Origin: Escherichia coli
GTDB taxonomy: Bacteria > Pseudomonadota > Gammaproteobacteria > Enterobacterales > Enterobacteriaceae
Direction: 5' to 3' (one strand)
Assembly (NCBI RefSeq): GCF_030013205.1
Contig: NZ_CP122648.1
Length of the DNA stretch: 64,000 nt
Positions within the stretch are counted from its first letter, which is position 1; each line of letters opens with the position of its first letter. Of this stretch, positions 13,152 through 19,100 are shown piece by piece. Position numbers: made by a program.

Positions 13152-16100
13152 TAAAACGTGAGGAAATACCTGGATTTTTCCTGGTTATTTTGCCGCAGGT
13201 CAGCGTATCGTGAACATCTTTTCCAGTGTTCAGTATGGTGCCTTGCACGGTAATTATGTCACTGGTTATTAACCAATTTTTCCTGGGGGATAAATGAGCG
13301 CGGGAAGCCCAAAATTCACCGTTCGCCGCATTGCGGCTTTGTCACTGGTTTCGCTATGGCTGGCAGGCTGTTCTGACACTTCAAATCCACCGGCCCCGGT
13401 CAGCTCCGTTAATGGCAATGCGCCTGCAAATACCAATTCTGGTATGTTGATTACGCCGCCGCCGAAAATGGGGACGACGTCTACAGCTCAGCAACCGCAA
13501 ATTCAGCCGGTACAGCAGCCACAAATTCAGGCAACTCAACAACCGCAAATCCAGCCGGTGCAGCCAGTAGCTCAGCAGCCGGTACAGATGGAAAACGGAC
13601 GCATCGTCTACAACCGTCAGTATGGGAACATTCCGAAAGGCAGTTATAGCGGCAGTACCTATACCGTGAAAAAAGGCGACACACTTTTCTATATCGCCTG
13701 GATTACTGGCAACGATTTCCGTGACCTTGCTCAGCGCAACAATATTCAGGCACCATACGCGCTGAACGTCGGTCAGACCTTACAGGTGGGTAATGCTTCC
13801 GGTACGCCAATCACTGGCGGAAATGCCATTACCCAGGCCGATGCAGCAGAGCAAGGAGTTGTGATCAAGCCTGCACAAAATTCCACCGTTGCTGTTGCGT
13901 CGCAACCGACAATTACGTATTCTGAGTCTTCGGGTGAACAGAGTGCTAACAAAATGTTGCCGAACAACAAGCCAACTGCGACCACGGTCACAGCGCCTGT
14001 AACGGTGCCAACAGCAAGCACAACCGAGCCGACTGTCAGCAGTACATCAACCAGTACGCCTATCTCCACCTGGCGCTGGCCGACTGAGGGCAAAGTGATC
14101 GAAACCTTTGGCGCTTCTGAGGGGGGCAACAAGGGGATTGATATCGCAGGCAGCAAAGGACAGGCAATTATCGCGACCGCAGATGGCCGCGTTGTTTATG
14201 CCGGTAACGCGCTGCGCGGCTACGGTAATCTGATTATCATCAAACATAATGATGATTACCTGAGTGCCTACGCCCATAACGACACAATGCTGGTCCGGGA
14301 ACAACAAGAAGTGAAGGCGGGGCAAAAAATAGCAACCATGGGTAGCACCGGAACCAGTTCAACACGCTTGCATTTTGAAATTCGTTACAAGGGGAAATCC
14401 GTAAACCCGCTGCGTTATTTGCCGCAGCGATAAATCGGCGGAACCAGGCTTTTGCTTGAATGTTCCGTCAAGGGATCACGGGTAGGAGCCACCTTATGAG
14501 TCAGAATACGCTGAAAGTTCATGATTTAAATGAAGATGCGGAATTTGATGAGAACGGAGTTGAGGTTTTTGACGAAAAGGCCTTAGTAGAAGAGGAACCC
14601 AGTGATAACGATTTGGCCGAAGAGGAACTGTTATCGCAGGGAGCCACACAGCGTGTGTTGGACGCGACTCAGCTTTACCTTGGTGAGATTGGTTATTCAC
14701 CACTGTTAACGGCCGAAGAAGAAGTTTATTTTGCGCGTCGCGCACTGCGTGGAGATGTTGCCTCCCGCCGCCGGATGATCGAGAGTAACTTGCGTCTGGT
14801 GGTAAAAATTGCCCGCCGTTATGGCAATCGTGGTCTGGCGTTGCTGGACCTGATCGAAGAGGGCAACCTGGGGCTGATCCGCGCGGTAGAGAAGTTTGAC
14901 CCGGAACGTGGTTTCCGCTTCTCAACATACGCAACCTGGTGGATTCGCCAGACGATCGAACGGGCGATTATGAACCAAACCCGTACTATTCGTTTGCCGA
15001 TTCACATCGTAAAGGAGCTGAACGTTTACCTGCGAACCGCACGCGAGTTGTCCCATAAACTGGACCACGAACCAAGTGCGGAAGAGATCGCAGAGCAACT
15101 GGATAAGCCAGTTGATGACGTCAGCCGTATGCTTCGTCTTAACGAGCGCATTACCTCGGTAGACACCCCGCTGGGTGGTGATTCCGAAAAAGCGTTGCTG
15201 GACATCCTGGTCGATGAAAAAGAGAACGGTCCGGAAGATACCACGCAAGATGACGATATGAAGCAGAGCATCGTCAAATGGCTGTTCGAGCTGAACGCCA
15301 AACAGCGTGAAGTACTGGCACGTCGATTCGGTTTGCTGGGGTACGAAGCGGCAACACTGGAAGATGTAGGTCGTGAAATTGGCCTCACCCGTGAACGTGT
15401 TCGCCAGATTCAGGTTGAAGGCCTGCGCCGTTTGCGCGAAATCCTGCAAACGCAGGGGCTGAATATCGAAGCGCTGTTCCGCGAGTAAGTAAGCATCTGT
15501 CAGAAAGGCCAGTCTCAAGCGAGGCTGGCCTTTTTCTTTTGGTTGGGGAGCCGGTGTGTTTGTGGGCTGGATAAGCCGCAATAGCGTCTCATCCGGCAAT
15601 TTGCACCCTATGTGTTCATCATCTTGCGCACTAGCTGCATAAACAGCTCCTGCTCTTCTCCACTCAAACGCCCCAAAAATTCCTCATCCACGCTGTCACC
15701 TATCGGTATCGCCGCAGCAAGTATCTTTTCGCCTTCGGCAGTCAGCCAGACAAAGCGTCGCCGCTTGTCAGCGGCGTCATGTTCACGTCTGACTAAGCCA
15801 CGATTTTCCATTCTTGCCAACATTTCTGCCAGCGTTGCTTTGGTGCTGACGGCTGCTTCCATCAGTGCCACCTGTTCGATACCAGGTTTATCAGCAATGG
15901 CGCGCATCACCGCGTACTGTGGTTTGGTCAGATCAGGTAACTCGTGCTGCCAGCGGGCCGTGTGTTGCTGAAAAAGCTGTCGTAACTGATGGAACGCTTT
16001 ATTTCGTAACGCCATGTAAACTCCGGGCTAATTCTCTGTCGCTATCATAGCGGTTTTTCAGTGACGAAGAAGATGTTGTTACTTTTCAATCCTTGCCGCT

Positions 16101-19100
16101 GTGGAAATGAAGGAGTATGTTAATAATAACGTTCGTATACGAACAATTAAGAGAGTAAGCAATGAAACTGATCGTCGGGATGACAGGGGCTACCGGTGCG
16201 CCTCTTGGTGTGGCATTACTGCAAGCGCTGCGGGAGATGCCGAATGTCGAGACTCATCTGGTGATGTCGAAGTGGGCGAAAACCACTATTGAACTGGAAA
16301 CGCCTTACAGCGCTCGCGATGTTGCCGCCCTCGCAGACTTCAGCCATAACCCGGCGGATCAGGCGGCGACTATCTCTTCCGGCTCCTTTCGTACCGACGG
16401 CATGATCGTTATTCCATGCAGTATGAAAACGCTCGCCGGTATCCGCGCTGGTTACGCCGATGGCCTGGTGGGGCGCGCGGCGGACGTCGTGCTCAAAGAA
16501 GGCCGCAAACTGGTGCTGGTGCCGCGTGAAATGCCGCTTAGCACAATCCATCTCGAAAATATGCTCGCACTTTCGCGCATGGGCGTGGCGATGGTGCCGC
16601 CGATGCCTGCCTTTTATAACCATCCCGAAACGGTAGATGACATTGTCCACCACGTGGTAGCCCGCGTGCTGGATCAATTTGGCCTCGAACATCCTCACGC
16701 CAGGCGCTGGCAAGGATTGCCGCAGGCCCGGAATTTTTCTCAGGAGAATGAATAATGGCATTTGATGATTTACGCAGCTTTTTACAGGCGCTTGATGACC
16801 ACGGCCAGTTACTGAAAATCAGCGAAGAGGTGAACGCGGAACCGGATCTGGCAGCCGCAGCCAACGCCACCGGGCGTATCGGCGACGGCGCGCCCGCGCT
16901 TTGGTTTGATAATATTCGCGGCTTTATCGATGCCCGCGTGGCAATGAACACCATCGGTTCCTGGCAGAACCACGCGATTTCCCTCGGCCTGCCGCCAAAC
17001 ACCCCGGTTAAAAAACAGATTGATGAGTTTATCCGCCGCTGGGATAACTTCCCCATTACCCCGGAGCGCCGCGCCAATCCAGCCTGGGCGCAGAACACCG
17101 TCGATGGCGACGAGATCAACCTGTTCGATATTCTGCCGCTGTTTCGTTTAAACGACGGTGATGGCGGTTTCTATCTCGATAAAGCGTGCGTGGTTTCCCG
17201 CGATCCGCTCGACCCGGATAACTTCGGCAAGCAGAACGTCGGCATCTACCGCATGGAAGTGAAGGGCAAACGTAAGCTCGGCCTGCAACCGGTGCCGATG
17301 CACGATATCGCTCTGCATCTGCATAAAGCGGAAGAACGCGGTGAAGATCTGCCGATTGCCATCACCCTGGGTAACGATCCGATCATCACCCTGATGGGCG
17401 CCACGCCGCTGAAATACGATCAGTCTGAGTACGAAATGGCGGGCGCGCTGCGCGAAAGCCCGTACCCGATCGCCACCGCCCCGCTGACCGGTTTTGATGT
17501 GCCGTGGGGCTCGGAAGTGATCCTCGAAGGGGTTATCGAAAGTCGTAAACGTGAGATTGAAGGGCCGTTCGGTGAGTTTACCGGCCACTACTCCGGCGGG
17601 CGTAACATGACCGTGGTGCGTATCGATAAAGTCTCTTACCGTACCAAACCGATTTTCGAATCGCTCTATCTTGGTATGCCGTGGACCGAAATCGACTACC
17701 TGATGGGGCCTGCCACCTGCGTGCCGCTGTATCAGCAACTGAAAGCCGAGTTCCCGGAAGTGCAGGCGGTAAACGCCATGTACACCCACGGCCTGTTGGC
17801 GATTATCTCCACCAAAAAACGCTACGGCGGCTTTGCCCGCGCGGTGGGCCTGCGTGCAATGACCACGCCGCACGGTCTGGGCTACGTGAAGATGGTGATT
17901 ATGGTCGATGAAGACGTTGATCCGTTCAACCTGCCGCAGGTGATGTGGGCGCTCTCCTCGAAAGTGAACCCGGCAGGCGACCTGGTGCAGTTGCCAAATA
18001 TGTCCGTGCTGGAACTCGACCCTGGCTCAAGCCCGGCGGGGATCACCGACAAGCTGATTATCGACGCCACCACGCCTGTCGCCCCGGACAACCGTGGTCA
18101 CTACAGCCAGCCGGTGGTGGATTTACCGGAAACCAAAGCCTGGGCTGAAAAACTGACCGCTATGCTGGCCGCACGTAAATAAGGAGAACAAGATGATTTG
18201 TCCACGTTGTGCTGATGAACAGATTGAAGTGATGGCGAAATCGCCGGTAAAAGATGTCTGGACAGTCTATCAGTGCCAGCATTGCCTCTATACCTGGCGC
18301 GATACCGAACCGCTTCGCCGCACCAGCCGCGAACATTACCCGGAAGCGTTTCGTATGACGCAGAAAGACATTGATGACGCGCCAATGGTGCCGAGCATTC
18401 CGCCGCTGCTGGCGGAAGGTAAGCGTTAATAAAAAGTGCCGGGTAGTGGCTTTGCTTTACCCGGCCTCATTACTTTATTTTATAAAATGACAGCCGCCCG
18501 CTTTTCGGCGATCCGGTATCAATATAAATCTGGTTTGCGAACGTCTGAATGTTATCAAACATCATATGTCCAAATATAAAATAATCAGCGCCGTTTATTT
18601 GTTGTAACTCGCCATTAAGCGATTTCTGCACACGATCAACAGGCCAGAGTAATTCTCTCTCCGCTATTTCTTTGCCAAAGAGATATTCACTCCCCGGATA
18701 ATCGGTAATGACTCCAACTTACTGATAGTGTTTTATGTTCAGATAATGCCCGATGACCTTGTCATGCAGCTCCACCGATTTTGAGAACGACAGTGACTTC
18801 CGTCCCAGCCTTGCCAGATGTTGTCTCAGATTCAGGTTATGCCGCTCAATGCGCTGAGTATAACGCTTGCTGATAACGTGCAGCTTTCCCTTCAGGCGTG
18901 ATTCATACAGCGGCCAGCCATCCGTCATCCATACCACGACCTCAAAGGCCGACAGCAGGCTCAGAAGACGCTCCAGTGTGGCCAGAGTGCGTTCACCGAA
19001 GACGTGCGCCACAACCGTCCTCCGCATCCTGTCATACGCGTAAAACAGCCAGCGCTGACGTGATTTAGCACCGACGTAGCCCCACTGTTCGTCCATTTCA

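What the first reader, a model, noticed from the sequence alone, without database searches (positions are those of the whole stretch)
16016..16161. Perfect 14-bp palindrome as candidate MarR operator overlapping the decarboxylase promoter
GTTCGTATACGAAC (16131-16144) is a perfect inverted repeat 18 bp upstream of the operon start codon, in the divergent region shared with the MarR-family gene. MarR regulators typically bind such palindromes and release on aromatic ligand binding, which gives a testable regulatory model.
Basis: inference. Interest (0 to 1): 0.45.

Follow-up and report, generated by a model that had tools for sequence, protein, structure and literature searches.

The report
Known HosA operator of decarboxylase operon

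Summary
GTTCGTATACGAAC lies at 16131-16144, as reported. It sits in the 146-bp gap between a MarR-family gene (15608-16015, minus strand) and vdcBCD (16162-18429). A perfect 14-bp palindrome is not rare in itself: the window has 4 against about 3.6 expected. Position and conservation make the case. In 80 orthologous loci from about 21 genera of Enterobacterales, the core GTTCG-N4-CGAAC occurs 75 times, once per locus and always between the regulator and the operon (0.47 expected). It carries 1.81 bits per column against 0.40 in the flanks. It starts 9-10 nt after a conserved -10 box, so it covers roughly +2 to +17. The regulator is HosA, 132/135 identical to PDB 8AGA. Roy & Ranjan (2016) showed that HosA binds a palindrome downstream of this operon's transcription start and is released by 4-hydroxybenzoate. 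Later biosensor papers use this same 14-bp site in binding assays. One small extra: many other genera carry a second, asymmetric site 56-57 bp upstream, next to the -35 box. Escherichia lacks it.

The parts
16131..16144 (.). HosA operator (O1): perfect palindrome GTTCG-TATA-CGAAC
   Evidence: Sequence read. One copy per orthologous locus, 75 exact cores in 494 kb against 0.47 expected. 1.81 bits per column against 0.40 in flanks. Same 14-mer and flanks in the published HosA probes.
15608..16015 (-). hosA, MarR-family winged-helix repressor (135 aa)
   Evidence: Pfam MarR above cut-off. 132/135 identical to PDB 8AGA 'Transcriptional regulator HosA'. Recognition helix and wing invariant across genera.
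16093..16098 (+). Predicted -35 box (TTGCCG) of the vdcBCD promoter
   Evidence: TTGYCN hexamer with a 17-nt spacer to the -10 in 81 of 85 loci. Prediction only; the tool's own promoter scan found nothing at its threshold.
16116..16121 (+). Predicted -10 box (TATGTT) of the vdcBCD promoter
   Evidence: A TANNTT hexamer ends 9-10 nt before the palindrome in 69 of 85 loci. This puts the operator at about +2 to +17, which agrees with the published 'downstream of the transcription start site'.
16149..16155 (+). Ribosome-binding region (AAGAGAG) of vdcB
   Evidence: Purine-rich stretch 7-13 nt before the ATG. Other genera have GAGG at the same place. Inference.
16162..16755 (+). vdcB (UbiX-type flavin prenyltransferase, 'Pad1')
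   Evidence: NCBIfam VdcB 312 bits against cut-off 290. Full-length match to PDB 1SBZ.
16755..18182 (+). vdcC (UbiD-family hydroxyarylic acid decarboxylase)
   Evidence: NCBIfam VdcC 789 bits against cut-off 650.
18193..18429 (+). vdcD (small subunit D)
   Evidence: NCBIfam VdcD 121 bits against cut-off 30.

Best explanation
The palindrome is the operator of HosA, the MarR-family repressor encoded divergently next to it. A HosA dimer places its two recognition helices on the half-sites GTTCG and CGAAC. The site sits just downstream of the -10 box of the vdcBCD promoter, at about +2 to +17, so bound HosA blocks RNA polymerase from starting or leaving the promoter. 4-hydroxybenzoate, a substrate of the decarboxylase, binds HosA and releases it from the DNA, and the operon is then expressed. 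Shown here: the site, its position, its conservation, and the identity of the proteins. Shown in the literature: binding, repression, and release by 4-hydroxybenzoate. Inferred: the exact transcription start and the half-site contacts.
For: Site and geometry. The regulator is HosA and the operon is vdcBCD. The core GTTCG-N4-CGAAC occurs once in each of 75 loci spanning about 21 genera, always between hosA and the operon; five Rahnella loci differ by one base. The half-sites are invariant, while the central four bases vary (TATA, TACA, TGTA, TATG, CATA, TGTG). That pattern is expected when a protein reads two half-sites. The site is kept where the operon starts with vdcC instead of vdcB. It has decayed in the one locus that lost the operon (L077). 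HosA's helix-turn-helix and wing residues are invariant across genera. Six E. coli lineages keep the site. Literature: HosA binds a palindrome downstream of the transcription start, represses the operon, and is released by 4-hydroxybenzoate (Roy & Ranjan 2016, as summarised). Gel shift, BLI and ligand release were shown on probes with this 14-mer and these flanks (PMC6261655; PMC6694116).
Against: The primary paper (Biochemistry 55:1120, PubMed id 26818787) is not held. I therefore took its footprint and transcription-start data from secondary summaries. The published work used HosA from strains UMN026 and E2348/69, which differ from this window's protein at 3-5 of 135 residues, none in the recognition helix or wing. 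The supplement of PMC6261655 prints the site as a 15-mer, GTTTCGTATACGAAC, which I read as a misprint. The -35 and -10 boxes are my prediction, and the consensus scan found none at its threshold.
Confidence: 0.93

Rival explanations
1. The palindrome acts mainly as an RNA hairpin in the 5' leader of the vdcB mRNA, with a 5-bp stem and 4-nt loop, affecting stability or translation rather than serving as a protein-binding site.
For: The site is probably transcribed, at about +2 to +17. The predicted fold of the leader contains this hairpin. An invariant stem with a variable loop is superficially what a hairpin would show.
Against: The leader folds no better than shuffled sequence (-6.8 kcal/mol, z = +0.63, 150 of 200 shuffles fold as well). 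The stem never covaries; it is simply invariant, which points to sequence being read rather than pairing. A related sequence (O2) recurs upstream of the -35 box in 34 loci. That position lies outside the vdcB transcript if the promoter prediction is right. Direct HosA binding to this DNA is published.
Confidence: 0.03
2. The site is bound by a regulator other than HosA, and its position next to hosA is coincidental.
For: HosA has also been linked to motility genes, so its regulon is not fully defined.
Against: The site accompanies hosA in 79 of 80 loci across about 21 genera, including loci with a different first operon gene. Published gel shifts and BLI show HosA binding this 14-mer and dissociating with 4-hydroxybenzoate.
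Confidence: 0.03
3. The palindrome is a chance feature with no function.
For: Perfect 14-bp palindromes occur at the chance rate in this window, 4 seen against 3.6 expected.
Against: 75 exact cores in 494 kb of orthologous loci against 0.47 expected, all at the same position. 1.81 against 0.40 bits per column. Published binding data.
Confidence: 0.01

Closest known systems
HosA and the non-oxidative hydroxyarylic acid decarboxylase (HAD) operon operator of E. coli UMN026 (Roy & Ranjan, Biochemistry 2016; reused in PMC6261655 and PMC6694116)
   Same: Same gene pair, same position in the rpoS-mutS region, same 14-bp palindrome and near-identical flanks (TAATAATAAC-GTTCGTATACGAAC-AATTAAGAGA). The regulator is 96-98% identical. 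This is the same system in another strain.
   Different: Three to five amino-acid differences in HosA outside the DNA-reading elements, and a few substitutions in the promoter spacer and leader (TATGTT against TATTTT at the -10). No functional difference is indicated.
Classical MarR-family operators (MarR/marO of E. coli; also the aromatic-acid sensors PcaV and HucR)
   Same: Homodimeric winged-helix repressor encoded divergently from its target. Short palindromic operator at or near the transcription start. Release by a small phenolic or aromatic ligand. PcaV is the next-best solved relative (E = 6e-16).
   Different: A different operator sequence and a different ligand. As far as I recall, marO holds two MarR sites; the E. 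coli hosA-vdcB gap has only one.
BagL/FevM, the MarR regulator beside UbiX/UbiD-type decarboxylases in Streptomyces bagremycin/ferroverdin clusters
   Same: Best NCBIfam hit for HosA (88 bits), and VdcB's best hit is the neighbouring BagM/FevK. The pairing of a MarR regulator with UbiX/UbiD genes therefore recurs.
   Different: The score is far below the family cut-off (230 bits), so HosA is not a member. The BagL/FevM operator was not examined here.

Membership tests
HosA-HAD operon operator (Roy & Ranjan 2016) | The regulator is HosA | tested here: met
   132/135 identical over the full length to PDB 8AGA 'Transcriptional regulator HosA'.
HosA-HAD operon operator (Roy & Ranjan 2016) | Divergent vdcBCD (HAD) operon next to rpoS, in the rpoS-mutS variable region | tested here: met
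   rpoS, hosA, vdcB, vdcC, vdcD, pphB and mutS in order. VdcB, VdcC and VdcD above NCBIfam cut-offs. The locus is present in 2379 of 5426 complete E. coli genomes.
HosA-HAD operon operator (Roy & Ranjan 2016) | The 14-bp palindromic site is identical to the published binding site | tested here: met
   The T_H probe in the supplement of PMC6261655 contains the exact GTTCGTATACGAAC. The F0/R0 probes carry the same flanks, and the main text says '14-bp TFBS'. A genome with those flanks has the 14-mer.
HosA-HAD operon operator (Roy & Ranjan 2016) | The site lies downstream of the operon's transcription start | tested here: inconclusive
   The predicted -10 ends 9 nt before the site, which is consistent. 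No transcription-start data were available to me; the published statement reached me second-hand.
HosA-HAD operon operator (Roy & Ranjan 2016) | HosA binds the site and 4-hydroxybenzoate releases it | not testable with these tools
   Published gel shift, BLI and calorimetry (ITC) for HosA of UMN026 (PMC6261655; PMC6694116). Not repeated for this strain's protein.
HosA-HAD operon operator (Roy & Ranjan 2016) | The motif is conserved upstream of the operon in other Enterobacteriaceae | tested here: met
   75 exact cores and 5 one-mismatch sites in 80 loci.
MarR-family repressor/operator systems | Winged helix-turn-helix MarR domain | tested here: met
   Pfam PF01047 scores 46.3 bits (cut-off 24.6) and PF12802 scores 42.1 bits (cut-off 27).
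MarR-family repressor/operator systems | Palindromic operator in the regulator's own divergent intergenic region, at the target promoter | tested here: met

The most novel reading that the evidence does not exclude
The ancestral control region had two HosA sites, and Escherichia keeps only one. In 34 of 81 loci (Enterobacter, Klebsiella, Kluyvera, Lelliottia, Leclercia, Pseudocitrobacter and others) a second, asymmetric site lies exactly 56-57 bp upstream of the main operator, four bases from the -35 box. Its consensus is GATCGTGTACGAAC: the right half CGAAC is invariant and the left half is G-N-N-C-G. Its left half is a GATC (Dam methylation) motif in 25 of 34 loci, and a second GATC follows it in 14. 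If HosA binds there, those genera could have tighter, cooperative or methylation-sensitive control that Escherichia, Citrobacter and Salmonella have lost. I do not know whether Roy & Ranjan described this second site.
Probability: 0.35. Interest if true: 0.3.

Novelty: already known. Interest (0 to 1): 0.1.

Why it matters
It matters little as a discovery. The regulator, its operator, its ligand and the repression mechanism were published in 2016. The site has since been used as a component of 4-hydroxybenzoate (paraben breakdown product) biosensors. The useful outcome here is a correct label for this locus. It is also an independent and broader confirmation that the operator is under strong constraint, across about 21 genera where the original study reported nine. 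Finally, it gives a pointer to a second conserved site in non-Escherichia genera that may merit a binding assay.

Tried and rejected
1. Palindrome rarity as evidence: rejected, because 14-bp palindromes occur at the chance rate in the window.

2. The consensus promoter scan found no sigma-70 site in the gap at its threshold. I located the -35 and -10 boxes from cross-genus conservation instead.

3. A possible 15-bp variant, GTTTCGTATACGAAC, printed in the supplement of PMC6261655. My probe-based search gave a 1-base gap, but that gap came from an 'A' lost at a line break in the stored text (AAACA/TGAG against the genomic AAACAATGAG). The supplement prints the same 15-mer on both strands, which cannot be true of a non-palindromic 15-mer. 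The genome with the same flanks has the 14-mer. I treat the 15-mer as a misprint or machine-reading error.

4. RNA hairpin reading: rejected.

5. A second E. coli palindrome near the hosA start, CGCTAT-C-ATAGCG at 16040-16052. Only TATCATAG is conserved across genera. That reads TATGAT on the hosA strand, a likely -10 box, so the palindromic symmetry looks incidental.

6. A second HosA site in the E. coli gap: none. The best upstream match has 3 mismatches at a non-homologous distance, which is the chance level.

7. The primary paper could not be read. A full-text search for the 14-mer found no paper.

8. I could not settle where the hosA promoter is in E. coli, nor how the reported autorepression works from a site 116 bp upstream of the hosA ATG.
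Full report
**The observation.** The window is E. coli chromosome. The order is nlpD (13294-14433), rpoS (14460-15488), a convergent MarR-family gene (15608-16015, minus strand), then a 146-bp gap. After the gap come three genes on the plus strand (16162-16755, 16755-18182, 18193-18429), followed by pphB and mutS. GTTCGTATACGAAC is at 16131-16144, exactly as reported. It is a perfect 14-bp inverted repeat that does not extend further. Seventeen bases separate it from the ATG at 16162.

**Is it more than chance?** Not on its own. The 64-kb window holds four perfect 14-bp palindromes, and base-shuffled copies hold 3.6 on average. Near matches to this sequence elsewhere in the window are also at the chance level. 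One falling in this particular 146-bp gap has a probability of about 0.008 by my arithmetic. That is suggestive only, so conservation had to decide.

**What the genes are.**
- The regulator has a Pfam MarR domain above the gathering score.
- It is 132/135 identical over its full length to PDB 8AGA, 'Transcriptional regulator HosA'.
- The three operon genes pass the NCBIfam cut-offs for VdcB, VdcC and VdcD, the subunits of non-oxidative hydroxyarylic acid decarboxylase.
- VdcB matches the solved Pad1 of E. coli O157:H7, PDB 1SBZ.
- The locus is present in 2379 of 5426 complete E. coli genomes and absent from the rest. That fits its known place in the variable rpoS-mutS region.

**Conservation.** A scan of one genome per species with HosA returned 80 loci. 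They come from about 21 named genera of Enterobacterales, with HosA identity of 58-98%.
- Seventy loci have vdcB divergent from hosA.
- Eight have the operon starting directly with vdcC.
- In one (L001) vdcB carries a frameshift.
- One (L077, Rahnella perminowiae) has lost the decarboxylase genes.

Counting these 80 loci plus one E. coli genome locus (L081), the exact core GTTCG-N4-CGAAC occurs 75 times in 494 kb. It occurs once per locus, always between hosA and the operon, against 0.47 expected. Five Rahnella loci have ATTCG in the left half. The locus without an operon has a decayed site, ATTCTCATAAGAAC.

With the loci aligned on the site, its 14 columns carry 1.81 bits each against 0.40 in the 60 nt to the left and the 40 nt to the right. 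The two half-sites are invariant. The central four bases vary among TATA, TACA, TGTA, TATG, CATA and TGTG. Six E. coli lineages that differ by up to 7% across this region all keep the site; one has GTTCGCATACGAAC. The helix-turn-helix and wing of HosA (AVSTKATLAEML and DKRRRF) are invariant across genera, in step with the invariant half-sites.

**Position relative to the promoter.** The tool's consensus scan found no promoter at its threshold. Conservation does show one. A TTGYCN hexamer, a 17-nt spacer (81 of 85 loci) and a TANNTT hexamer are present, and the palindrome starts 9-10 nt after the -10 box in 69 of 85 loci. In the window these are TTGCCG at 16093-16098 and TATGTT at 16116-16121. 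With a start about 7 nt past the -10 box, the operator covers about +2 to +17. The site therefore overlaps the transcription start region rather than the hexamers. The start position is inferred, not measured.

**What is already known.** Roy & Ranjan (Biochemistry 55:1120, 2016) is not held in the library, so I rely on how later papers summarise and use it.
- The bioRxiv paper 10.1101/2024.04.24.590444 states four things about HosA of E. coli UMN026. It represses the HAD operon and itself. Its palindromic site lies downstream of the transcription start, suggesting a steric block to RNA polymerase. 4-hydroxybenzoate disrupts DNA binding. 4-hydroxybenzoate induces the operon several-fold.
- PMC6261655 synthesised DNA 'containing 14-bp TFBS of HosA'. 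It showed binding by gel shift and biolayer interferometry, and dissociation by 4-hydroxybenzoate.
- Its primer table carries TTTTAATAATAAC-[site]-AATTAAGAGAATAAACAATGAG, and one probe has the exact GTTCGTATACGAAC. These are the flanks of this locus in another E. coli lineage.
- PMC6694116 repeated the binding and ligand specificity.
- The table prints the bold site as GTTTCGTATACGAAC. The same 15 letters appear on both complementary oligos, which is possible only if the true site is the 14-bp palindrome, and the main text says 14 bp. I treat the extra T as an error.

**Mechanism.** A HosA dimer binds the two half-sites over the start of the vdcBCD transcript and blocks initiation or promoter escape. 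4-hydroxybenzoate, a substrate of the decarboxylase, binds HosA and releases it. Shown here: site, position, conservation, identity of the parts. Shown in the literature: binding, repression, ligand release. Inferred: the exact transcription start and the base contacts.

**Rivals.**
- An RNA hairpin in the leader is not supported. The leader folds no better than shuffled sequence (z = +0.63) and the stem shows invariance, not covariation. A related sequence also recurs upstream of the -35 box in other genera, outside the vdcB transcript if the predicted promoter is right.
- A different regulator is unlikely, given strict co-occurrence with hosA and the published binding.
- Chance is excluded by the conservation.

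**An extra finding.** In 34 of 81 loci a second site lies 56-57 bp upstream of the operator (start to start), four bases before the -35 box. It has at most 2 mismatches in the ten specified positions. Shuffled controls reach 1 mismatch in 0.3% of cases and 2 mismatches in 2.9%. The genera include Enterobacter, Klebsiella, Kluyvera, Lelliottia, Leclercia, Pseudocitrobacter and Pluralibacter.
- Within that subset the second site carries 1.67 bits per column against about 0.9 in its surroundings.
- Its right half, CGAAC, is invariant.
- Its left half is only G-N-N-C-G. It is usually GATCG, which contains a Dam methylation motif (25 of 34 loci), and a second GATC follows the site in 14 of 34.
- Escherichia, the Citrobacter freundii group, Salmonella, Kosakonia, Atlantibacter and Rahnella lack it.
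- The equivalent E. coli stretch, 16072-16087 (GATGTTGTTACTTTTC), is not a site, and the Escherichia gap is about 25 bp shorter.

I could not check whether the 2016 paper noted this second site.

**Verdict.** The system is already characterised, so this is a correct rediscovery and its interest is low.

Noticed in passing
L007-L063 (34 loci, e.g. L044 and L053); equivalent window position 16072-16087: A second, asymmetric HosA-like site (consensus GATCGTGTACGAAC) lies 56-57 bp upstream of the main operator and 4 nt from the -35 box in many non-Escherichia genera. The E. coli window has no site there (GATGTTGTTACTTTTC). The left half is a GATC Dam motif in 25 of 34 loci.
   Followed up: partly
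window 18704-19471: A 768-bp IS1 splits the phosphatase gene pphB. Its inverted repeats are at 18704-18726 and 19449-19471, and insA/insB ORFs lie at 19141-19416 and 18719-19222. The pphB fragments are at 18470-18631 and 19445-19603. The insertion sits just downstream of vdcD, in the rpoS-mutS variable region.
   Followed up: partly
L077 (Rahnella perminowiae), about 2840-2900: This is the only locus where the HosA homolog has lost the decarboxylase operon; a sugar-type transporter gene lies beyond. There the operator and the -10 box have decayed (ATTCTCATAAGAAC, CATAAG), while hosA itself looks intact. It is a single case, consistent with relaxed selection on the site.
   Followed up: partly
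L049, L057, L062, L065, L074, L076, L078, L080: In eight loci (Pluralibacter, Superficieibacter, Cedecea, some Rahnella, Erwinia endophytica, Mangrovibacter) the operon next to hosA starts with vdcC and has no adjacent vdcB. The operator is kept. Several have a longer leader between the operator and the start codon.
   Followed up: partly
window 16040-16052: A 13-bp palindrome, CGCTAT-C-ATAGCG, lies 24-36 nt upstream of the hosA start codon; the scan also flagged it as terminator-like on the plus strand. Across genera only TATCATAG is conserved. That reads TATGAT on the hosA strand and is probably the hosA -10 box. The hosA -35 box and transcription start in E. coli remain unclear.
   Followed up: partly
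L001 (MAG 'Citrobacter sp.' HRGM_Genome_0066, 5,967-bp contig): This short contig has a HosA 98% identical to the window's and the same intergenic sequence. The same MAG also holds a genuine Citrobacter-type copy (L014). It looks like E. coli contamination of the bin. Its vdcB carries a 1-base insertion (CCTCTTAGGTG against CCTCTTGGTG).
   Followed up: no
window 15536-15607: Between the rpoS terminator hairpin (15502-15535) and the hosA stop codon there is a sequence resembling a REP element (…GGATAAGCCGCAATAGCGTCTCATCCGGC…). The resemblance is from memory and was not tested.
   Followed up: no
window 16753-16757: The vdcB stop codon and the vdcC start codon overlap by one base (TAATG), which suggests translational coupling.
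   Followed up: no
L083 (E. coli KY 1497), site equivalent to window 16131-16144: A natural operator variant, GTTCGCATACGAAC, occurs within E. coli. The same central variant is the norm in Phytobacter.
   Followed up: no
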